From Candidatus Woesearchaeota archaeon (GTDB lineage Archaea > Nanobdellota > Nanobdellia > SCGC-AAA011-G17 > GW2011-AR17), in assembly GCA_003694495.1 (NCBI GenBank), contig RFJO01000038.1:1-35433 (forward strand): a stretch of DNA of 35,433 nucleotides. Reading direction: 5' to 3'. A program made the translations under genes and the position numbers. Within the stretch, counting starts at the first letter, position 1; each line of letters begins with the position of its first letter. Positions 7,455 to 16,409 of this stretch are shown piece by piece. The notes below the pieces were generated by a model, which was not told the DNA's origin, ran no database searches, and saw only the letters and a list, made by a program, of their open reading frames with translations.

Positions 7455-10400
7455 TTATACCGGTGGCTGGAGTTGCGTGCGTAGGAAAATTGTTGAAGAC
7501 ATTTCGTTGTCGTGAACATCTTTGCAGGTTAGGTAGATTTTTTCTGTAAGAGGGTCAACATTGATTGAAACAATTTGTGATGTGGGAAGCTGGGAGTAGT
7601 CTTCGTTGTTGGTTGAGTAGGAACATGAAGCGTCTTCGTTAAGCATAACCTCAAGTAATGCGCCAGTGTAAGATAATCCAGTAATCTCTGGAGGTTCAGT
7701 GTCAATATCTACTGTAAAAGAAAGGTTTTCCCGTGCTACATTGTTAGCAATGTCCCTGCATTCTATAATGTAATCATACTGTTGTTTTGTTAAGCCTGAT
7801 AAAACCTGGGTGTGGTAAGTTGAGTTTGTGTTAAAAAACTCAATGTTGTTGTAGTAACAGATTGATTTGCCGTTTAACGCGCCCTTGGCAGTTTTAACTT
7901 GCAAAGTAATGTTGGATGAATAAATTGTGCCTGACGGGGAAAGCGCTGTGATAATGAGAGGCTCGGCTTTGCTGGCGCGCCAAATGTAACTTTCAGAGTT
8001 TTCGTTTCTTACTTGTGAATTCTCTGGCTCGTCACGGCACCTGAAATAATATGTGTTTAAGCCGTCCCTTACTGGAAGTTTTACCTGGCACTCGGCGTAC
8101 TTTGAGTAAATGCTGTCAGGCGGCATTTCTGCACAGGTCATGTTTAACGGCATCTGGTCGAACGGCATGTCCTGGGTTGAGGCGCGGCAGGAAAACGGCG
8201 AGACTTCGTCTACAACTAAAGTTAAACTGGTTTCGTTTGCGTTGGCTGCAACGTAGCCCATGTCTGGTATAGAAGATGAGATTAGCCTTGGCGGTTCTAA
8301 GTCTGGCGCTCTGTCAGTTGAAAATTCTATGACGTAAGGTGGAGATCTTTTGTCGTCTTTAGGGTTGCCGTTGGCGTCTTTACAGATAACATAAAACTTA
8401 TAATCTGTTGCAGGCTGGAGGTTGCCAATGTAGTAGTTGTGGACTTTGTCAAAGTAACTTTCGTTGAAGCGTAAGCTTAAATCGTTAAAAGTGTACTTAA
8501 GTTCTTTGTCAAGCTTGCACATGGACGGTTCGTTGGTTTGTATGCCAAAGTATAGCTTGGAAAAGGCTGGAAGTTTTTTGCTGCCGATAAGATAACCGTT
8601 TTGTTTTTCCACAATGCTGTAGTCTGTGGTAATATCTTTGCCTTGATAAGTTAGCTTGAACGCCTCATTCCATGGGGTTATGATGGGTTTGTTAACATCG
8701 TTCGGGTCGGCTGCTATGCATTTTGGGCGAGATGTGCCTTCGTTTTCTTTAATGAACTTGCAACCTGCGCCCAGGGACATGCATTTGTATTCAGAGCACG
8801 GGCTCATCGGGTCTTCGTCGCATTTTGCACAATTGTCGCTGCCGGGGGGAGGTTGCCAAAGCTTGCACTCGGTTGTGACAGTGCGTTTTTGGTATTTCCT
8901 GAAAACGATTTCTGTTAACACTATGTAAAGTGTTACCAAAGCGCCGATGCCGGACACCCAGGAGGCAGCGCTGCTTGCTGCACTAGTGCCAATGGCTTTT
9001 AATATTAAGCCTGTAAGCTGGACAGTTATACCGATGCCTTTTGTTATTGCCTGGGCGATCTTTTTGTCTTTGTAAACATCTTCTGCGTTCAAGTTAGATA
9101 AATATAACTCTTTGTTTGCTTTATGCCATACTTCTTCAAACGCTCCAGCCATGGTTTGGTCAACTTGCATTTTGGGTTCTTCTGATTGACGGTTGTAGTA
9201 GGATGACTGGAACGATTTTCCCCTGTCAAAAATTATGTCCCAGCCTTGGTAAGAATGGTCCCAGCTGCGTAGGAAACCTTCTTTTGAAAAACCGCCAATG
9301 TAATTATAATGTGCGCCGCAATCGCCTATGCTTCTGCAATAGTTGTTCTGTTCTTTGATATAATCGTTACTGAAACATTCACAGTTGCCTTCTTTTACGC
9401 AAGACCATTTCCAGTTGGTGTAAATCATTTTGGTGAAAACGGTTGTGCATTTCTTGGTGGCAGTGCTGCATGTTTGGTCTGATGCTGTTTGCGTTGTGGC
9501 AGATTTGGTTTGTTTTTGCGGGTTCCAAAACCTGAACCCTGGCGGGTGCTGCGGGATGCATGTGCCAGAGTTTTCGTCGCCTGCCCAGAAACAGTCCCTT
9601 AAGTCTGACCTTTCACAACATTCTTTGTCAAGCTTCATTGCCAAAGCAATATCTTCAGGGCTTGTTTTGTCTTTGGCTGTGTTACATATAGTGGTGCAAT
9701 CTTTCCAACGGTTTTCTTTGCAGGCAGCTTCACTAAACAAGTAGTTCTGGGCAGTGGCAGAAATTTTGCCCTCAGCGGTTTCTTTAATGCCTGTGTTTAG
9801 TGTCTCGTAAACGTCTGATTGTAAACAAACCTCTTCACGGAAATCTTTGCATGGTTCTACTATTTCTTCACCGTTAATGCAAATGTGACGGTAATGCCTG
9901 GAACCAGGAAGGTCTAACGACGGGCCAATTGCGCCGTCAAACTCGCACCAACTTTCGCCGTTGATCCTTCTACCGCCGTCACCTTCAACTACAGGGTTGT
10001 CCCAAGTGGTGGGGCAGTCTAAACTTTTGCAAACATAATCGCCGTCTTGAGTTTGGCCGCATAATGTGCCCTTGGCATAATCACAATCTTCTGCAACTCC
10101 TTCAGGATTTCCACAGGAGTCAAACCAGTAAACGTCGTCAGTGCCGTCAAGGCAACCTTTGTACGAGTGAGCCTTGCATTGTTCGCATGGCAAGTTGTTG
10201 TTTGAACAAAATAAACCTTCATAAAACCCTTCCCCACCAATGCCGTCCTGCATGTTGCATGTTGCACGCGACGTCCAAACACATTCTTCGTTGGCAGACT
10301 TGACACAACAGCCCCTGTCAGCCTGGCGGCAAATGTCTGAGCATTCTTGCTCGGACTTGGATTGTCGGAAGTCTTTGCTAAGCTCCGGGTAGTCTAGAAG

Positions 10401-10796
10401 AATGTTGTTGCATTTTTTTTCTGTAACATACGCACAACTTGCACCTGCTAACACACAACAACCCTTGTTGCATTCTTTTACTGAGTCGCATGTTGCGTCA
10501 GGGTTCCATGTGTAACCTGCGTTCTCGCACGCTGCCTGTGATGTCTGCTTTGAACATGATCCGTCAGGGGAAATGCAACAGCCTAACTTGCAAAAAGACG
10601 TGTCTTCACATTTTTGATAGTTGGCAACTTTGTAAGAGTCGTCGCATTGAGATGAAGAAGTGTAAACACAACTTTCACCGGATAAAGTTTGCTCGCAACA
10701 TGCTTTGCCATCATCTTCTGCAGTTACAGGAAGTAAGTAAACAGTGAAAGTAATACTAATAACTAGGTAAATCATGAACAATGCTTTAAGCTTCAT
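7455..10796 (-). CDS. giant cysteine-rich surface protein, paralog B (1113 aa), unknown family
   Basis: ATG start, with signal peptide MKLKALFMIYLVISITFTVYLLPVTA followed by EDD. It has four [GA]CC-x6-8-C-x7-9-C modules, a conserved Cys core, a hydrophobic hairpin (aa 580-632), a post-hairpin Cys cluster (CKLWQPPPGSDNCAKCDEDPMSPCSEYKCMSLGAGC) and four Cys-pair repeat modules. I counted about 66 Cys by hand. It is clearly paralogous to 10834-14220. Confidence 0.85.
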   Translation of the reverse strand: MKLKALFMIYLVISITFTVYLLPVTAEDDGKACCEQTLSGESCVYTSSSQCDDSYKVANYQKCEDTSFCKLGCCISPDGSCSKQTSQAACENAGYTWNPDATCDSVKECNKGCCVLAGASCAYVTEKKCNNILLDYPELSKDFRQSKSEQECSDICRQADRGCCVKSANEECVWTSRATCNMQDGIGGEGFYEGLFCSNNNLPCEQCKAHSYKGCLDGTDDVYWFDSCGNPEGVAEDCDYAKGTLCGQTQDGDYVCKSLDCPTTWDNPVVEGDGGRRINGESWCEFDGAIGPSLDLPGSRHYRHICINGEEIVEPCKDFREEVCLQSDVYETLNTGIKETAEGKISATAQNYLFSEAACKENRWKDCTTICNTAKDKTSPEDIALAMKLDKECCERSDLRDCFWAGDENSGTCIPQHPPGFRFWNPQKQTKSATTQTASDQTCSTATKKCTTVFTKMIYTNWKWSCVKEGNCECFSNDYIKEQNNYCRSIGDCGAHYNYIGGFSKEGFLRSWDHSYQGWDIIFDRGKSFQSSYYNRQSEEPKMQVDQTMAGAFEEVWHKANKELYLSNLNAEDVYKDKKIAQAITKGIGITVQLTGLILKAIGTSAASSAASWVSGIGALVTLYIVLTEIVFRKYQKRTVTTECKLWQPPPGSDNCAKCDEDPMSPCSEYKCMSLGAGCKFIKENEGTSRPKCIAADPNDVNKPIITPWNEAFKLTYQGKDITTDYSIVEKQNGYLIGSKKLPAFSKLYFGIQTNEPSMCKLDKELKYTFNDLSLRFNESYFDKVHNYYIGNLQPATDYKFYVICKDANGNPKDDKRSPPYVIEFSTDRAPDLEPPRLISSSIPDMGYVAANANETSLTLVVDEVSPFSCRASTQDMPFDQMPLNMTCAEMPPDSIYSKYAECQVKLPVRDGLNTYYFRCRDEPENSQVRNENSESYIWRASKAEPLIITALSPSGTIYSSNITLQVKTAKGALNGKSICYYNNIEFFNTNSTYHTQVLSGLTKQQYDYIIECRDIANNVARENLSFTVDIDTEPPEITGLSYTGALLEVMLNEDASCSYSTNNEDYSQLPTSQIVSINVDPLTEKIYLTCKDVHDNEMSSTIFLRTQLQPPV
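8901..9059 (-). other. hydrophobic hairpin region of paralog B
   Basis: IAQAITKGIGITVQLTGLILKAIGTSAASSAASWVSGIGALVTLYIVLTEIVF. The second helix is clearly hydrophobic, while the first is weaker and amphipathic. Confidence 0.5.
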
Positions 10797-10818
10797 TGAG
10801 AAATATAATAGAAAGAGA

Positions 10819-10826
10819 TATTTAAA
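10819..10826 (-). promoter_or_regulatory. TATA-box-like element upstream of giant paralog B
   Basis: The minus strand reads TTTAAATA 23-30 nt upstream of the ATG at 10796, inside the 37-nt gap between paralogs A and B. Confidence 0.45.
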
Positions 10827-10833
10827 TGCTTTA

Positions 10834-13800
10834 CTATGAACCTATTGTCTTAACATTTGATGGAGTAGAAGTTGGAGCGTTTGGAATGGTGGGTAAGACG
10901 GATTTTTTTACAACTTTAATCCTTGGCAAGTAAGGTACAATGTTTACCGGGTTCATGATGTTGTCAAACAAGTCTTTACAAATTAAAGTGTAACTCCCTT
11001 CACCGGATAAAGAATGAATATCAGAGTTTATCGCAGAAGTTTTGCCTTGCCCGAAAACAAAGCTTGAGTTCATGTACTCGCACGTGGCTGGCTCGTTTAG
11101 TTTTACTATAATATTATCTCCGGATTTTTTTAACGATGTTACAAAGGGTGCGTCATAGTCTCTTATTGAGGTGAAGTTGATTTCAGTTAGTGCAACGTTT
11201 TCAACGTAGTCAGTGCAACGAATGTTGAAGTTGTATTGCCCTGGGGGAAGGTCAGTGAAAACGTTTTCATTTTTTGAAGTGTTTGTCACGCCGAACGCGC
11301 CCGAGACTTTATCACTGTCGTAAGTGCATGAAGCTGTGCCGTCAGCGCCGCCGGAAACCTGTACGAACATCGTGATGTTTTTATCGTACAATTCGCCTGA
11401 AGGACCTTTTGCAATGATTTCCAATGGAGGGGTTTTCTCAAACTGTACAACGTAACTTTCAGTGTTGGTGTTAGGTTCAGAGTTGACAGGGTGGTCCTGG
11501 CAACGGATGTAGTAAGTGTTTGCGCCTTCGCTAACGTTTACTAATGCGGCGCAGTAGTTGTAGGATGAGTAAAGTGACTCTGGAGGGTTTTGCGCGCAGC
11601 CCATCTCTGTTTCCATTAATTCGTAATCTTGATCATGGGTGGAGATCTTACAATCAAACTCTGAAACTTCGTCAACATAAACCATTATTGGTGTGCTGTT
11701 TTTATTATGTGCAATCTTGTTGTTTTTTGGAAGGTAAGTTGAAACTATGTAAGGCACGTCAAGGTCGGGAGAGTTGTCGGTCTTGAACTCTATAATGTAC
11801 GGCGTAACGTATTCGTCGTCTTTAGGGTTAGGCTGGCTGTCCCTGCAGGCGATGTAAAACTTGTACTCTGTGTCCGGCTGAAGGTTGTTGTATGTGATGT
11901 TATGAACACTGTCGTAAAACGTGTCTGGCATAGGAGATGTGTAGTCGGTGAAAAGGTATTTGTCTTTAAACTCGGTTGTGTAATAACACTGTGAAGGTTC
12001 ATTGGTTTGAATGCCGAAGGATACTTTTGAAAAGGCTGGAACCTCTGGATTTATTTTGTAGCCTGATGGTGTAGATGAGATTGTGTACTGTTGGGTTATA
12101 TCGTTGCGTTTTGAAACAACTTTTAATGATTCAGGGTGAGGTTTGATGACGGGTTTTTCAACATCTTTTGGATTAGCGTTAATACAGGTTTCCCTGCCAG
12201 TGCCTTCGTTTTCTGCAATGAAACGACAGTTTGCGCCCAGTGACCTGCAACGGTATTCCGAGCAAGGCTTCATTGGGTTTTCGTCGCATTTTGAACAATC
12301 GTCGCCGCCTGGAGGAGGTTGCCATGGCTGGCAGGTTACTGTTACTGTTCTGTCTTCTGTTTCTGGCCAGGTGAAAGCAATTGTTAGTGCTGCTATAATC
12401 ACTCCGATGGCAGCAATAACCCATCCAATAACAGGTATTGATGCAGAAACCAATACCGGGGCAGCTATAGCTTCTAAAATTGCAACGTATGCTACCATGC
12501 CCAATCCAACTAAAGCAATAGTCCCACCAATAACGCCTCCAGATATTGCTCCTTCATAGCCTCTTATACCACCTAATTTGCCCCAATAATCTTGCATACT
12601 AAACTTACCAAAATCAAGAGCATTGCCTGCCTGTTTCCATTTTTCCAAAAAGTTTCCGGCCATTTCTTCATCTACTCTAATTTTTGGATTACCAACTGGA
12701 TCTTTTTCCCATGTTCTAATTGAACCATCATTAGTAAATTTCCCTAAATAATTATAATGTGCGCCGCAATCTCCAAGGCTTCTACAGAACTGGTTCCTTG
12801 TTTGCAAAAACTCATCTTTGTAAACATCACAGTTATTTTTGCATTCCCATTTTGACGTAACATCTAATTTTTTCCTACCCCACTTTGCTTTCGCTTCATA
12901 AGTTCCTTTTTCGCATTCTTCAACTGCACTTGCGTCAGGAGTTTGCTGGTTTTCATCATCAGACCAAAACTTTAACCCTGGAGCAACTAATGGGATGCAA
13001 AGACCATTATTTTCATCTTCACTAATCCATTCACAATCCCTTAAATCACTCCGTTCACAACATTGCTTATCTTCTTTCATTCTAATCTTTTGTTCTTCTT
13101 CATCTTTTGCATCTTTAGCAGTGTTGCAGGTAGTGGTACAATCTTTCCATCTGTTTGGTTTACATTGCGCAACTTTCATTTCTCCTTGAGGCGCATCTGT
13201 GGCAGTTATCGAAGTACAAATCTCTTCCCTGTAATCTTTACACGGCTCAACAATCTCTTGACCGTTAATGCAAATGTGACGATAATGCCTGGAACCAACC
13301 ACGTCAAAAGTTGGGCCAACCTTTGCATCATAAGAACACCAACTTTCGCCATTCAACCTTGTTTTACCGTTTTGAGGGTCAGTAGATGTTGGGTCTTCCC
13401 AGGTAGTGATACAGTTTACACTTTTACAGTAAGCTTCTTCATGAAACGAGTCCGCTTCACTGCAAATTGAACTTTTGTAAGTGTAATCACAATCTTCTGC
13501 AACATCTTCTGGGTTACCACAGGAGTCAAACCAGTAAACGTCTTCTTCACCGTCAAGGCAACCTTTTCTGTAATGCCTTTCACATTCGCAGTTTAAGTTT
13601 TGGTTAGAACAGAAAACGTCTTTATAGAACCCGTTACCGCCAACACCGTCAGGCAACCCGCAATTTCCTCTCGTGCCCCATGTGCAGCTATCATCTTTAA
13701 CACAACACCCCCTGTCGGCTGAACGGCAAATTGCAGTGCACTCAAACTCTGAGCCCGACTGCCTAAAATCTTTATCAAGCTCAGGGTAATTTTCTAGCAT

Positions 13801-14220
13801 AATATCGCACCTTTGTTCTGTCACGTAAGAACAAGTTGCACCGCCAAGAACGCAACAACCTTTCTTGCATTCTTGTACAGAGGAACATTCCGCGTCAGCC
13901 ACCCATTTGAACCCTTGCAGTTCGCAAGCAGCTTTAGAAGTCTGTTTTGAACATGATCCTTCGTCAGTAACACAACAACCTAATGCGCAGTAAGTTGTAT
14001 CTTCACATTTCTTGAACGTCTCAATATTATAATCCTGGTTGCAGTTTTCAACTGAAGTGTAAACGCAATTGTCTCCAGATATAGTTTGCTCACAACAGGC
14101 CATGTCTTTTAACTCTTCCTCAGCTGAAACTTCTTTCAAAGCTACACCCGAAATGAATGTTAAGCTTATTATAAGATAAATCATAAAAACAGCTTTTTCT
14201 TTTATCAACCCTTTTTTCAT
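10834..14220 (-). CDS. giant cysteine-rich surface protein, paralog A (1128 aa), unknown family
   Basis: ATG start 21-30 nt downstream of a TTTTAAATTT box. The signal peptide is ...MIYLIISLTFISGVALKEVSA followed by EEE. The block order matches paralog B (ACCEQTISGDNC..., DVYWFDSCGNPEDVAEDCDY, GSRHYRHICINGQEIVEPCKDYREEIC, CRSLGDCGAHYNYLG). There are two strong TM helices (aa 558-617), then CQPWQPPPGGDDCSKCDENPMKPCSEYRCRSLGANC, followed by four repeat modules. Confidence 0.85.
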   Translation of the reverse strand: MKKGLIKEKAVFMIYLIISLTFISGVALKEVSAEEELKDMACCEQTISGDNCVYTSVENCNQDYNIETFKKCEDTTYCALGCCVTDEGSCSKQTSKAACELQGFKWVADAECSSVQECKKGCCVLGGATCSYVTEQRCDIMLENYPELDKDFRQSGSEFECTAICRSADRGCCVKDDSCTWGTRGNCGLPDGVGGNGFYKDVFCSNQNLNCECERHYRKGCLDGEEDVYWFDSCGNPEDVAEDCDYTYKSSICSEADSFHEEAYCKSVNCITTWEDPTSTDPQNGKTRLNGESWCSYDAKVGPTFDVVGSRHYRHICINGQEIVEPCKDYREEICTSITATDAPQGEMKVAQCKPNRWKDCTTTCNTAKDAKDEEEQKIRMKEDKQCCERSDLRDCEWISEDENNGLCIPLVAPGLKFWSDDENQQTPDASAVEECEKGTYEAKAKWGRKKLDVTSKWECKNNCDVYKDEFLQTRNQFCRSLGDCGAHYNYLGKFTNDGSIRTWEKDPVGNPKIRVDEEMAGNFLEKWKQAGNALDFGKFSMQDYWGKLGGIRGYEGAISGGVIGGTIALVGLGMVAYVAILEAIAAPVLVSASIPVIGWVIAAIGVIIAALTIAFTWPETEDRTVTVTCQPWQPPPGGDDCSKCDENPMKPCSEYRCRSLGANCRFIAENEGTGRETCINANPKDVEKPVIKPHPESLKVVSKRNDITQQYTISSTPSGYKINPEVPAFSKVSFGIQTNEPSQCYYTTEFKDKYLFTDYTSPMPDTFYDSVHNITYNNLQPDTEYKFYIACRDSQPNPKDDEYVTPYIIEFKTDNSPDLDVPYIVSTYLPKNNKIAHNKNSTPIMVYVDEVSEFDCKISTHDQDYELMETEMGCAQNPPESLYSSYNYCAALVNVSEGANTYYIRCQDHPVNSEPNTNTESYVVQFEKTPPLEIIAKGPSGELYDKNITMFVQVSGGADGTASCTYDSDKVSGAFGVTNTSKNENVFTDLPPGQYNFNIRCTDYVENVALTEINFTSIRDYDAPFVTSLKKSGDNIIVKLNEPATCEYMNSSFVFGQGKTSAINSDIHSLSGEGSYTLICKDLFDNIMNPVNIVPYLPRIKVVKKSVLPTIPNAPTSTPSNVKTIGS
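12370..12549 (-). other. two-helix transmembrane hairpin of paralog A
   Basis: AISGGVIGGTIALVGLGMVAYVAILEAIAAPVLVSASIPVIGWVIAAIGVIIAALTIAF forms two ~22-25 residue hydrophobic stretches joined by a short turn. Confidence 0.7.
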
Positions 14221-14258: not shown

Positions 14259-14492
14259 TTACTTTTTAATAAACTTAAATATTGAACATGAATAGTATAG
14301 ATGCATTAACAATAAAACTACTAAGGCGTAAATTAAGTTTGAGTGAATCTTGAATGATAAGGATTTGGTGAGCAGGCCAAATGTGATGGATTCTATAAAT
14401 CTATATTGAGTTATCCCAAAGCCGGTTATTATATACAATACTATGACTGCCAAAAGCAAATGCGCTGAGATTAGTCTTAACTTTTTTTTCAT
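14259..14492 (-). CDS. small two-helix membrane protein (77 aa) with three His, possible redox partner of the upstream molybdoenzyme domain
   Basis: The start overlaps the stop of 14489-15127 by 4 nt (ATGA). Two hydrophobic helices are LISAHLLLAVIVLYIITGFGI and IHSNLIYALVVLLLMHLYYSCSIF, with His residues inside or at their edges. Confidence 0.5.
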   Translation of the reverse strand: MKKKLRLISAHLLLAVIVLYIITGFGITQYRFIESITFGLLTKSLSFKIHSNLIYALVVLLLMHLYYSCSIFKFIKK

Positions 14493-15127
14493 TCTAAAAA
14501 CCCATCGTCAAGGTTGCCTGTGTTTGAGTATCCTCTACTTTCCCAATAACCTTTATAATCACTGTTGTTTGAAACTTCTATCCTTGTTATCCATTTAATC
14601 CATTTGTAGCCCCATTTGTCCTCAGCTACAAGCTGGAACGGGTAGCCTCTCTCCGGAGGAAGAACAACATCGTTCATTTTGTACGCCATTATGATGTCGT
14701 TGTCAAGCAGGTAACTTAACGGGAATGATGTAGAGTAACCGTCGTAAGCGTAAAATATCACAGTTGTGGCTTCAGGCAAAATGCCGGCGTCATTTAAAAT
14801 GTCTTTCACCAAAACTCCTTCCCATAAAATGTTAGCGCTCCAACCTTCAACACAGTTTAATTTTACAACCTTTTTATATTTTTGATACGATAACACGTCA
14901 TCGTAAGTTAAACTTAGTTTGTTTTTAACTAACCCGTTAACTTTAAGCTTATAATCTGCAATGTTGATATATTGAGGGCCTTTGATTGAGTTTTCCCTGA
15001 AATCTGAAACAGAGTCTAACTTTTTGCCTTGGTATTCCCTAACTTCTTTGCTTTGCAATTCTTTGACGTTTTGATTAACGCAACCTAGTAAGAGAATTAA
15101 AATTATGATTGTGAAAAAAGTTTTCAT
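14489..15127 (-). CDS. exported oxidoreductase with molybdopterin-binding domain (sulfite oxidase / MsrP-YedY family), lipobox signal
   Basis: The N-terminus MKTFFTIIILILLLGC is a lipobox-type signal (LLGC). The body carries family-typical strings: YKLKVNGLV...LSLTYDDVL, LNCVEGWSANILWEGV, YDGYSTSFPL, MAYKMNDVVLPPERGYPFQLVAEDKWGYKWIKWITRIEV. Confidence 0.75.
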   Translation of the reverse strand: MKTFFTIIILILLLGCVNQNVKELQSKEVREYQGKKLDSVSDFRENSIKGPQYINIADYKLKVNGLVKNKLSLTYDDVLSYQKYKKVVKLNCVEGWSANILWEGVLVKDILNDAGILPEATTVIFYAYDGYSTSFPLSYLLDNDIIMAYKMNDVVLPPERGYPFQLVAEDKWGYKWIKWITRIEVSNNSDYKGYWESRGYSNTGNLDDGFLE

Positions 15128-15659: not shown

Positions 15660-16409
15660 ATGAAAATGAATTTGACATTAGCAGAACCAAGGTTGTTGAA
15701 AGAAAGCGTGAATATTATATCTGAACTTGTGAACGAAGTGACGTTTAAGGTTGACCCTGCAAAGATTGAACTTGTTGCAATGGATCCTGCAAACGTCGCA
15801 ATGGTGGATTTTAAGCTGCTTAGCACGGCGTTTGCCGAGTATGATGTTAAAGAAGATAAAGAAATCTCTGTTAACCTTGATAATCTTAAAGCAATATTGA
15901 AAAGAGCAAAGCCTACGGATACAATCCAGCTTAAACTGGATGAAGAAAAAAACAGGTTGAAGATTGAACTTGTTGGGGAAAATAAAAGAACATTTAACTT
16001 AGCATTGTTAAATGTTGACGAGGGTGAACAAAAAGTGCCAAACCTTGAGTTTGGTGCAAGGGTTGAAACCTCTACAACCAAGTTTGATGAAGCTATAGAA
16101 GACATGGGCGTGGTGGCTGAGTCTGTTGCATTGATGGTTGAGGACGGAAAGTTTGTGGTTAAGTCTGAAAGCAACTTTAGTGATGCAAGCGTAGTTATAC
16201 CGCAGACAGAAGAAACCAAAATTGATGCCGGAGAAAATGTGCGTGCAAAGTATTCCATCGAGTACCTGAAAAAGATGATTAAAGGGTCTAAGCTAGCAGA
16301 CAATATTGTTATAAGCTTTGGCATGGATTATCCTCTGAAGATTGAGTATATTCTATTGGACAAGCTTAAGTTAGGATTCGTTCTTGCGCCTAGGGTAAGT
16401 AATGATTAA
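15660..16409 (+). CDS. pcn: DNA polymerase sliding clamp PCNA
   Basis: 249 aa. LAEPRLLKESVNIISELVNEVTFKVDPAKIELVAMDPANVAMVDFKL... and ...YSIEYLKKMIKGSKLADNIVISFGMDYPLKIEY are typical of archaeal PCNA in both length and layout. Confidence 0.9.
   Translation: MKMNLTLAEPRLLKESVNIISELVNEVTFKVDPAKIELVAMDPANVAMVDFKLLSTAFAEYDVKEDKEISVNLDNLKAILKRAKPTDTIQLKLDEEKNRLKIELVGENKRTFNLALLNVDEGEQKVPNLEFGARVETSTTKFDEAIEDMGVVAESVALMVEDGKFVVKSESNFSDASVVIPQTEETKIDAGENVRAKYSIEYLKKMIKGSKLADNIVISFGMDYPLKIEYILLDKLKLGFVLAPRVSND

What the first reader, a model, noticed from the sequence alone, without database searches (positions are those of the whole stretch)
8901..12549. Mid-protein transmembrane hairpin implies two separate Cys-rich ectodomains per giant protein
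In A, two strong hydrophobic helices (aa 558-617, nt 12370-12549) are joined by a short turn. B (nt 8901-9059) and C have hydrophobic segments at the same place.

With a cleaved N-terminal signal peptide, an even number of helices places both the ~550-aa N-terminal Cys-rich part and the ~480-aa C-terminal Cys/repeat part outside the cell. This is consistent with cysteines and sequons occurring on both sides.

A central hairpin anchor between two large ectodomains is an unusual design for an archaeal surface protein. Such proteins normally use a C-terminal anchor, a PGF-CTERM signal or a lipobox. The first helix of B is weak (it contains K and Q), so the topology there is less certain.
Basis: inference. 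Interest (0 to 1): 0.6.

Follow-up and report, generated by a model that had tools for sequence, protein, structure and literature searches.

The report
Hairpin membrane anchor between two outside lobes
One of three giant cysteine-rich envelope proteins of a tiny DPANN archaeon is very probably held in the membrane by a two-helix hairpin in its middle, with both large halves outside the cell and tied together by a disulfide; this hairpin is a variable add-on in a huge, uncharacterised protein family, not a fixed feature of it.

Summary
The hydrophobic stretch in A is real and lies at the stated coordinates. It has two segments (aa 558-582 and 597-618). None of 2000 shuffles of the mature protein gave two such windows. 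B has one strong helix and one weak helix. C has two marginal segments about 170 aa apart.

The core inference, that both halves lie outside, gained independent support:
- Total cysteines are even in 68/69 and 123/135 relatives, yet each half is odd, which implies a disulfide between the halves.
- Natural gene-split forms encode a secreted, TM-less N-half (41 or 43 Cys) and a separate C-half (23 Cys).
- Some full-length members have no hydrophobic segment at all.
- The C-half is built of tandem Ig/FN3-like domains.
- The genome encodes DsbA-like proteins, at least one with an export signal, and AglB.

The hairpin is not a conserved design. Relatives carry 0-5 hydrophobic segments in a hypervariable linker. 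Relatives of C usually have none, and two of them carry 12-20 cysteines in the supposed "cytoplasmic" loop. The turn shows no positive-inside signature.

The family has no Pfam or NCBIfam match, and the N-half fold has no PDB or BFVD match. It occurs in 59/61 genomes of the order.

Verdict: A, and probably B, are hairpin-anchored. C probably rides on them.

The parts
10834..14220 (-). Giant paralog A (1128 aa): signal peptide, Cys-rich N-lobe, variable linker with hydrophobic hairpin, Ig/FN3-like C-lobe
   Evidence: ORF and translation. 73 homologs, all from DPANN MAGs. AF2 mean pLDDT 83.9.
14122..14220 (-). A, Sec-type signal peptide (aa 1-33, ...KEVSA/EEE)
   Evidence: Basic n-region plus a 19-residue h-region with KD 2.36. 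The cleavage site was read from the sequence; no SignalP run was possible.
12763..14109 (-). A, N-lobe (aa 38-486): 47 Cys, no sequon, fold without known relative
   Evidence: AF2 pLDDT 90.9. No PDB or BFVD match (best E 0.35 and 0.62). Cys count.
12334..12762 (-). A, hypervariable inter-lobe linker (aa 487-629), 0 Cys
   Evidence: Linker length is 91-388 aa among 69 relatives and 119-489 among 135 more.
12475..12549 (-). A, first hydrophobic helix H1 (aa 558-582), glycine-zipper-like (GxxxGxxxG)
   Evidence: KD19 2.25, Hessa sum 0.0. 5 GxxxG in the block. Modelled as coil with pLDDT <40 by AF2.
12433..12474 (-). A, apolar turn (aa 583-596, EAIAAPVLVSASIP), one acidic residue, no K/R
   Evidence: Sequence. 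Turn charge statistics.
12367..12432 (-). A, second hydrophobic helix H2 (aa 597-618), the family's 'proximal' helix
   Evidence: KD19 2.63, Hessa -2.2. AF2 helix 599-617. Nearly identical in P0004.
12307..12333 (-). A, invariant start of the C-lobe, C630-x-P-W-Q-x-P-x-G, 12 residues after H2
   Evidence: C630, W633 and P636 are invariant in 65 sequences.
10936..12333 (-). A, C-lobe (aa 630-1095): 17 Cys, 7 sequons, tandem Ig/FN3-like domains
   Evidence: Foldseek PDB hits to PTP-delta Ig-Fn, titin and GhpA, E down to 3.5e-13. Cys and sequon counts.
7455..10796 (-). Giant paralog B (1113 aa), sister clade of A
   Evidence: Translation. Tree.
8979..9047 (-). B, weak first hydrophobic segment (aa 584-606, contains K and Q)
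   Evidence: KD19 1.33-1.35, Hessa +5.5 to +6.7.
8901..8969 (-). B, strong proximal helix (aa 610-632), followed by RKYQKR
   Evidence: KD19 2.03, Hessa +1.7.
2639..6637 (-). Giant paralog C (1332 aa), member of an old paralog clade with long linkers
   Evidence: Translation. Tree.
4697..4753 (-). C, marginal hydrophobic segment 1 (aa 629-647)
   Evidence: KD19 1.62, Hessa +3.2.
4184..4696 (-). C, low-complexity K/T/S/N-rich insert between the two segments (aa 648-818), 2 Cys
   Evidence: The equivalent stretch holds 12 and 20 Cys in P0042 and P0044.
4127..4183 (-). C, marginal hydrophobic segment 2 (aa 819-837), 15 residues before the C-lobe motif
   Evidence: KD19 1.64, Hessa +2.8.

Best explanation
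A, B and C are three paralogs of a very large, uncharacterised family of Sec-exported, disulfide-rich, two-lobed envelope proteins. The family is a core gene set of this DPANN order.

In A, a glycine/alanine/isoleucine-rich block of about 65 residues sits in the otherwise hypervariable inter-lobe linker. It most likely acts as a helical hairpin. H1 stops translocation of the chain that follows the exported N-lobe. H2 re-starts translocation, so the Ig-like C-lobe also ends up outside. The protein is then held in the cytoplasmic membrane by its middle. At least one disulfide joins the N-lobe to the C-lobe and closes the loop that contains the hairpin.

B probably uses the same arrangement with a marginal first helix. 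C, like most of its clade, is probably not membrane-spanning. It is probably kept at the surface by binding the anchored paralogs and/or the co-encoded pilin-like proteins.

Shown: the hydrophobic segments; the variability of the linker; Cys parity; the gene-split forms; TM-less members; the Ig-like fold; the presence of DsbA-like and AglB genes. Inferred: that the cysteines form disulfides; the inter-lobe bond; the actual membrane passes; the C-on-A/B association.
For: 1. A has two strong hydrophobic windows, absent from 2000 shuffles. The family's folded halves almost never reach KD 1.6.
2. No member has a C-terminal hydrophobic anchor, and A has no lipobox.
3. Cys parity. Total mature Cys is even in 68/69 relatives and 123/135 independent 50%-cluster representatives. 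The N-half is odd in 60/69 and 110/135. The C-half is odd in 68/69 and 127/135. Counts move in steps of two (17/19/21/23; 41...55).
4. All 9 N-even members of the first set, and 21/25 of the second, have an odd linker count. In the first-set members the extra Cys was located and lies 9-20 residues before C630. This arose in at least 4 separate clades.
5. Gene fission. In L010 and L012 the N-half is a separate 585- or 575-aa protein with a signal peptide, 43 or 41 Cys and no hydrophobic tail. The C-half is a separate protein with 23 Cys that carries the hydrophobic module.
6. P0065, P0064, P0042 and P0040 keep both lobes with no segment of KD >= 1.6 between them.
7. The C-lobe is tandem Ig/FN3-like domains with 7 recurrent sequon columns, against 1-5 for control motifs.
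8. The genome has two STT3/AglB genes. It also has two DsbA-like thioredoxin-fold genes; the C57 one has an N-terminal signal or anchor and a CPFC site.
9. In 10 further genomes of the order, each has at least one short paralog with a proximal helix of KD 2.0-3.4, usually with one or two further hydrophobic segments. In 7/10 the long C-type paralog has none.
Against: - No real topology predictor could be run.
- AF2 gave coil with pLDDT <40 for H1.
- The turn carries almost no K/R (0.40 per 15 residues), whereas the flanks carry 1.4-1.9. B has RKYQKR right after its proximal helix. This is the opposite of the positive-inside pattern expected for a cytoplasmic turn.
- Crude helix counts are odd in about half of the family (1 or 3 segments). 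So hydropathy counts do not map simply onto membrane passes. P0004, A's closest relative, scores three segments.
- Disulfide pairing is inferred from counts, not seen. Parity is partly inherited, so the sequences are not independent trials.
- C-lobe sequon density is only at expectation (0.98).
Confidence: 0.62

Rival explanations
1. Single-pass type I topology. Only the proximal helix next to the C-lobe spans the membrane. The N-lobe is outside and the Ig-like C-lobe is cytoplasmic.
For: - B has only one convincing helix.
- By crude calling, 24/69 relatives (Hessa scale) and 33/135 representatives (KD >= 1.6) have exactly one strong segment.
- K/R clusters often follow the proximal helix directly (RKYQKR, MYKK, GKSKKR), like stop-transfer flanks.
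- The C-lobe starts with CxxC...CxxxxC, which could be read as a metal site.
Against: - A has two strong segments, which would put its C-lobe outside.
- TM-less members export the same C-lobe.
- The odd/odd Cys split with an even total, and the gain of Cys in pairs in the C-lobe, point to disulfides and an inter-lobe bond.
- Split forms keep an odd Cys count in each gene.
- The C-lobe has an Ig/FN3 architecture with recurrent sequons.
Confidence: 0.1
2. The hydrophobic block is not a stable anchor in the cell's own membrane. Instead it is a membrane-active or oligomerising element. It could be a glycine-zipper segment that dips in from outside as a re-entrant hairpin. It could pack into a homo- or hetero-oligomeric pore or stalk. 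Or it could insert into the host cell's membrane during episymbiotic contact.
For: - The composition is Gly/Ala-rich and fusion-peptide- or glycine-zipper-like (e.g. FAGAMMGAGIGLMVGFMVA, VGAAFGAAAIGAAIGAIAG; 5 GxxxG in A).
- The turn is uncharged, with charges of both signs on both flanks.
- The number of segments is free to vary from 0 to 5.
- The organism has a reduced 0.84-Mb genome of DPANN type.
- The operon is shared with pilin-like proteins.
Against: - Segments this hydrophobic (Hessa sums of 0 or below) are expected to leave the Sec translocon sideways during export. This is established knowledge from Hessa et al. 2005 and 2007, recalled and not tested here.
- Each helix is long enough (about 20-25 residues) to span the membrane.
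- There is no sequence or fold match to any fusogen or pore former.
- Nothing observed here bears directly on the host.
Confidence: 0.15
3. Polyprotein-like processing. H2 acts as an internal signal peptide and is cleaved by signal peptidase, as in flavivirus or bunyavirus glycoprotein precursors. This would leave an N-lobe with a C-terminal anchor and a released, disulfide-tethered C-lobe.
For: - The architecture (ectodomain, two hydrophobic helices, ectodomain) is the same as in those precursors.
- An odd Cys count in each lobe would keep the cleaved parts together.
- Nature has split the gene at this linker.
Against: - No conserved small-x-small site follows H2 in A's clade (LTIAFTWP, LTIMFTWP, YTVLTWP).
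- H2 is 22 residues long, longer than typical cleaved h-regions (rule recalled, not tested).
- In the split forms the hydrophobic module stays with the C-half, and the N-half has no anchor.
Confidence: 0.05

Closest known systems
Helical-hairpin (N-out/C-out) membrane insertion, as in E. coli leader peptidase and in flavivirus/bunyavirus glycoprotein precursors (recalled knowledge)
   Same: Two adjacent hydrophobic helices joined by a short Pro/Gly/Ser-containing turn. The first would stop and the second re-start translocation, so exported domains lie on both sides of the hairpin.
   Different: - There is no sequence or fold relationship.
- The turn lacks the positive charges typical of cytoplasmic loops.
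- No signal-peptidase site follows H2.
- The hairpin is optional within the family (0-5 segments).
Sulfolobus S-layer pair SlaA/SlaB (PMC6098224)
   Same: A large unanchored surface subunit is held by a beta-sandwich-rich, membrane-anchored subunit. The split forms here (soluble N-half plus anchored Ig-like C-half), and the TM-less C-type paralogs beside anchored A/B-type paralogs, suggest the same division of labour.
   Different: - SlaB is anchored by a C-terminal helix after a coiled coil. Here the hydrophobic module precedes the Ig-like domains.
- No homology was detected.
- Lattice formation is unknown.
Usual archaeal surface-protein anchors: C-terminal TM helix, archaeosortase/PGF-CTERM lipid anchor, lipobox (PMC6098224)
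   Same: The proteins have a Sec signal peptide and the hallmarks of a glycosylated surface protein.
   Different: None of 75 family members has a C-terminal hydrophobic segment. A, B and C have no lipobox Cys at the end of the signal peptide. The only hydrophobic block lies in the middle.
Glycine zipper 2TM domain (Pfam PF05433) and related Gly-zipper families
   Same: Short Gly/Ala-rich paired hydrophobic helices with GxxxG spacing.
   Different: No Pfam hit for seven family linkers, including A's, even at E <= 5, or for A, B and C as whole proteins at E <= 1. The resemblance is compositional only.

Membership tests
2-TM helical-hairpin anchored protein with both termini/domains outside | Two hydrophobic segments, each long and hydrophobic enough to span the membrane, joined by a short turn | tested here: met
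   A: aa 558-582 (KD 2.25) and 597-618 (KD 2.63) with a 14-15-residue Pro-containing turn. B: second helix only is strong. C: both marginal.
2-TM helical-hairpin anchored protein with both termini/domains outside | Both flanking domains on the extracytoplasmic side | tested here: met
   The evidence is indirect but convergent: signal peptide; Cys parity and steps of two; split genes; TM-less members; Ig/FN3 fold.
2-TM helical-hairpin anchored protein with both termini/domains outside | Connecting turn on the cytoplasmic side (positive-inside signature) | tested here: not met
   K+R per 15 residues is 0.40 in the turn, against 1.42 and 1.88 in the flanks, in 26 two-segment members. This does not exclude the topology, because orientation is set by the upstream exported domain. 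It gives no support either.
2-TM helical-hairpin anchored protein with both termini/domains outside | Call by a trained topology predictor or an experimental map | not testable with these tools
   TMHMM, DeepTMHMM and Phobius were not available. AF2 models only H2 as a helix.
Type I single-pass surface protein | Exactly one membrane-spanning helix between ectodomain and cytoplasmic domain | tested here: not met
   A has two strong segments. Relatives have 0-5.
Archaeal C-terminally anchored / PGF-CTERM / lipobox surface proteins | C-terminal hydrophobic helix (with or without PGF motif), or a lipobox Cys after the signal h-region | tested here: not met
   No C-terminal hydrophobic segment in 75 members. 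No Cys at the signal-peptide junction of A, B or C.
Pfam glycine-zipper 2TM (PF05433) and any other Pfam/NCBIfam family | Profile match above the curated cut-off | tested here: not met
   No family above cut-off for the whole proteins or for seven linkers at E <= 5. The PDB profile search gave nothing.

The most novel reading that the evidence does not exclude
The three giants and the five pilin-like proteins form one hetero-oligomeric envelope or contact apparatus that is a core invention of this DPANN order. In it, the anchored A/B-type paralogs carry the TM-less C-type paralog through inter-subunit disulfides. The glycine-zipper hydrophobic module would be more than an anchor: it would be the part that assembles a channel or inserts into the host membrane at the episymbiont-host junction.
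Probability: 0.12. Interest if true: 0.85.

Novelty: new variant of a known kind. Interest (0 to 1): 0.5.

Why it matters
DPANN archaea depend on physical contact with host cells, yet almost nothing is known about their envelope proteins.

- This family is found in 59 of 61 sampled genomes of the order and in all 39 high-quality ones.
- It has thousands of sequence clusters.
- The N-lobe fold has no known structural relative.
- It has no annotation.

Knowing that both lobes face outward tells experimenters which parts to raise antibodies against. So does knowing that they are probably disulfide-linked, and that only some paralogs carry the membrane anchor. The same facts show which paralog to tag as the membrane handle, and they predict a hetero-complex.

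The Cys-parity and gene-fission argument is a general, cheap way to infer the topology of uncultured organisms' surface proteins.

Tried and rejected
- Pfam, NCBIfam and PDB-profile searches of the giants, their linkers and the neighbouring pilin-like proteins found nothing above cut-off.
- Foldseek of full-length A returned only generic Ig/FN3 chains. Foldseek of the N-lobe alone against PDB and BFVD found nothing.
- Three literature searches found no description of the family.
- A regex-based parse of paralogs in other genomes gave false motif hits. It was replaced by adding the sequences to the alignment.
- Sequon density as a topology marker for the C-lobe gave a neutral result (0.98 of expectation). 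Only the positional recurrence and the strong depletion in the N-lobe were informative.
- I tried to identify the N-lobe partner of the inter-lobe disulfide from the variants. C388 is lost in 7 of 9 N-even members and C179 in 2. But C388 is also absent in other members with an odd N-lobe, so the partner is not settled.
- Model coordinates are not returned by the tools, so Cys-Cys distances could not be measured.
- The signal-peptidase-cleavage idea for H2 was rejected for lack of a conserved site.

Full report
**What is there**

The window carries three large genes on the minus strand: A (10834-14220, 1128 aa), B (7455-10796, 1113 aa) and C (2639-6637, 1332 aa). Five small genes are interleaved with and follow them. 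Their products begin with class-III (prepilin-like) signal sequences.

Each giant starts with a Sec-type signal peptide. After it come:
- a cysteine-rich N-half of about 450-540 residues;
- a variable linker;
- an invariant C-x-P-W-Q-x-P-x-G motif;
- a C-half of about 480 residues.

None of the giants matches any Pfam or NCBIfam family above cut-off. A profile of the family finds nothing in the PDB sequence set.

**The observation**

In A, residues 556-621 form one uncharged hydrophobic block with two maxima.
- Kyte-Doolittle 19-residue means are 2.25 and 2.63. Summed Hessa-scale values are 0.0 and -2.2.
- The maxima are separated by a 15-residue apolar turn with two prolines.
- None of 2000 shuffles of mature A yields two separate windows of KD >= 2.2.
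- Within 69 relatives, the folded N- and C-halves reach KD 1.6 in only 1 and 0 proteins. The linker reaches it in 58. The signal is therefore specific.

B has one good helix (aa 610-632, KD 2.03) and a weak one (aa 584-606, KD 1.35). B's closest non-identical relatives have two segments above 1.6.

C has two marginal segments (KD 1.62 and 1.64), separated by about 170 low-complexity residues.

A and B have no N-x-S/T sequon before the hairpin; all 7 and 6 sequons lie after it.

I could not run a trained topology predictor. AlphaFold (mean pLDDT 83.9) models both halves confidently. It shows only the second hydrophobic segment as a helix and leaves residues 545-601 as low-confidence coil.

**What the halves are**

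The C-half is a chain of Ig/FN3-like beta-sandwich domains. Foldseek hits include PTP-delta Ig-Fn, titin and the Aureispira grappling-hook protein, with E down to 3.5e-13.

The N-half, modelled separately at pLDDT 90.9, has no significant match in the PDB (best E 0.35) or in BFVD (best E 0.62). It looks like a fold without a known relative.

**The family**

- A word-seeded search gave 73 relatives. All that carry a source name come from Nanoarchaeota/Woesearchaeota MAGs.
- An exhaustive profile search gave 8028 50%-identity clusters at E <= 0.001 and 2447 at E <= 1e-30.
- In the window's own taxonomic order, 59 of 61 sampled genomes, 39 of 39 high-quality ones and 46 of 47 genera have it. Most have several copies.
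- The window's genome is 0.84 Mb and about 90% complete. It has exactly these three copies.
- Synteny is conserved: PCNA, then two or three giants interleaved with proteins of about 250 aa, several of which begin with class-III-like signal sequences (checked in L001).
- A and B are sister clades. C belongs to an older paralog clade.

**Are both halves outside?**

Five independent lines say yes.

(i) Cysteine parity.
- In 69 aligned relatives, the mature protein has an even number of Cys in 68.
- The N-half is odd in 60 (41 to 55, in steps of two). The C-half is odd in 68 (17, 19, 21, 23). The linker has none in 47.
- In 135 further cluster representatives the figures are 123, 110 and 127.
- Gain and loss in pairs, with an even total, is the signature of a protein in which every Cys is in a disulfide. 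An odd count on each side of the linker then requires a bond between the halves, and so the same compartment.
- All 9 N-even members of the first set have an odd linker count. The extra Cys lies 9-20 residues before C630, after or at the end of the proximal helix. This arose in at least four separate clades. In the second set, 21 of 25 N-even members show an odd linker count.
- This is the pattern expected if the C-half's unpaired Cys normally bonds to the N-half, and these variants have replaced that partner with a local one.

(ii) Gene fission.
I checked two other loci.
- In L010 and L012 the N-half is a separate protein of 585 or 575 aa. It has a signal peptide and 43 or 41 Cys. It ends just after the LGDCG motif and has no hydrophobic tail.
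- The C-half is a separate protein (P0073, P0074) with 23 Cys. It carries its own signal sequence and the hydrophobic module.
- The N-half is thus a secreted soluble unit. The hydrophobic module belongs to the C-half unit. Each keeps one unpaired Cys.

(iii) TM-less members. Some full-length members have no hydrophobic segment between the halves: P0065 (linker of 91 aa), P0064, P0042 and P0040. With an N-terminal signal peptide, their C-halves must be exported.

(iv) Fold and glycosylation sites.
- The Ig/FN3 fold of the C-half, with two conserved Cys per domain, is typical of extracellular proteins.
- Complete sequons recur in seven alignment columns, against 1-5 for control tripeptides.
- The N-half is threefold depleted in sequons: 104 observed against 295 expected, and below expectation in 67 of 69 proteins. 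Such depletion is hard to explain unless that half meets the glycosylation machinery.

(v) Machinery. The genome encodes two STT3/AglB homologs. It also encodes two DsbA-like thioredoxin-fold proteins. One has an N-terminal signal or anchor and a CPFC active site.

**Is the hairpin the family's design?**

No.
- The linker is hypervariable, at 91-489 residues.
- Among the 135 new representatives, the number of windows with KD >= 1.6 is 0 in 23, 1 in 33, 2 in 32, 3 in 30, 4 in 15 and 5 in 2.
- The only fairly constant element is a strong helix ending 10-20 residues before C630. At KD >= 2.0, 97 of the 135 have at least one such window.
- Upstream of it lie zero to three weaker, glycine-zipper-like segments.
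- Because both halves are outside, the true number of passes must be even. The many crude counts of 1 and 3 therefore show that hydropathy alone mis-counts here, through marginal partner helices or hydrophobic segments that do not span.

C's clade stands apart.
- The proximal position usually holds an aromatic amphipathic helix (NTIxWIYTIYxLID), not a TM helix.
- Two members (P0042, P0044) carry 12 and 20 cysteines, in small disulfide-module spacing, in the stretch that a hairpin model would place in the cytoplasm.
- In ten further genomes of the order, every genome has at least one short paralog (1020-1140 aa) with a proximal helix of KD 2.0-3.4, usually with one or two further hydrophobic segments. 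In seven of the ten, the long C-type paralog has no segment above 1.6.
- I therefore read A, and probably B, as the anchored subunits. C is probably a peripheral subunit, and its 170-residue insert is probably extracellular.

**Evidence that does not fit**

- In 26 two-segment members with a short turn, the turn is almost free of charge (K+R 0.40 and D+E 0.18 per 15 residues). The flanks carry 1.4-1.9 K+R.
- B has RKYQKR immediately after its proximal helix.
- A cytoplasmic turn would normally be the positive side. Orientation here should be dictated by the upstream exported domain, so this does not refute the hairpin. It does keep two other readings open: a re-entrant or membrane-active role for the module, and a single-pass topology for B-like members.
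- P0004, A's closest relative, has an 8-residue longer middle and scores three segments.

**Comparison with known systems**

Reviews of archaeal surface biogenesis list these anchoring modes: multi-TM, N- or C-terminal TM, lipid anchors, and protein-protein anchoring (PMC6098224).
- No member of this family has a C-terminal hydrophobic segment.
- A, B and C have no lipobox.
- A central hairpin between two ectodomains works like the helical hairpins of leader peptidase, or of flavivirus/bunyavirus glycoprotein precursors (recalled knowledge). There is no homology to them and no conserved signal-peptidase site after H2.
- The anchored/unanchored division resembles SlaB/SlaA.
- The glycine-zipper resemblance to Pfam PF05433 is compositional only; there is no hit.

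**Verdict**

- The topological inference, two ectodomains per protein, is well supported by new evidence.
- The hairpin is a lineage-variable anchor module in a plastic linker, not a conserved architectural principle.
- The more notable facts are about the family itself. It is near-universal in its order and very large. It has an N-lobe fold with no known relative. It has an inferred inter-lobe disulfide that survives gene fission.
- Confidence that both lobes are outside is about 0.85. Confidence that A is anchored by a two-pass hairpin is about 0.6.

Noticed in passing
window 12763-14109 (A N-lobe) and family-wide: The N-lobe is threefold depleted in N-x-S/T sequons (104 observed against 295 expected over 69 proteins; 0 in A and B). 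The C-lobe is at expectation, with recurrent sites. This suggests selection against glycans on the N-lobe, possibly because it is a binding face.
   Followed up: partly
window 12586-14109 (-): The N-lobe is modelled at pLDDT 90.9 but has no significant PDB or BFVD structural match. It may be a new disulfide-rich fold.
   Followed up: partly
window 32-2642 and 6643-7404 (-): The five prepilin-like proteins of the operon all have even Cys counts (6, 6, 2, 4, 4). None needs an intermolecular partner, unlike each lobe of the giants.
   Followed up: partly
L010 4151-9169; L012 1337-8033: Natural gene fission of a giant into an N-half gene and a C-half gene. A pilin-like gene (L010) or a block of HEPN/nucleotidyltransferase cassettes (L012) sits between the two halves.
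   Followed up: yes
P0072 (1099 aa, relative from another assembly): The N-terminus resembles the 253-aa prepilin-like protein of the window (6643-7404). It is fused to the Ig-like repeats of the giants' C-lobe. This is a Rosetta-stone hint that pilin-like proteins and giants work together.
   Followed up: no
window 15660-16409 (+); L001 2768-3490; L003 9015-9761: A PCNA gene lies directly upstream of the giant-protein operon in three distantly related genomes. The synteny is unexplained.
   Followed up: no
window 14259-15127 (-): A lipobox-type molybdopterin oxidoreductase (PF00174, E 8.5e-38) and a 77-aa two-helix cytochrome-b-like protein lie immediately upstream of A. This could be an MsrP/MsrQ-like repair pair for oxidised envelope proteins.
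   Followed up: no
genome contigs C57:3861-4340 and C61:3345-3833: Two DsbA-like thioredoxin-fold genes (CPFC and CSFC active sites), one with a clear signal or anchor. No VKOR homolog was found, so the re-oxidant is unknown.
   Followed up: partly
P0044 and P0042 linkers: Cys-rich mini-modules (20 and 12 Cys) are inserted in the inter-lobe linker of C-type paralogs. The linker is a hot spot for domain insertion.
   Followed up: partly
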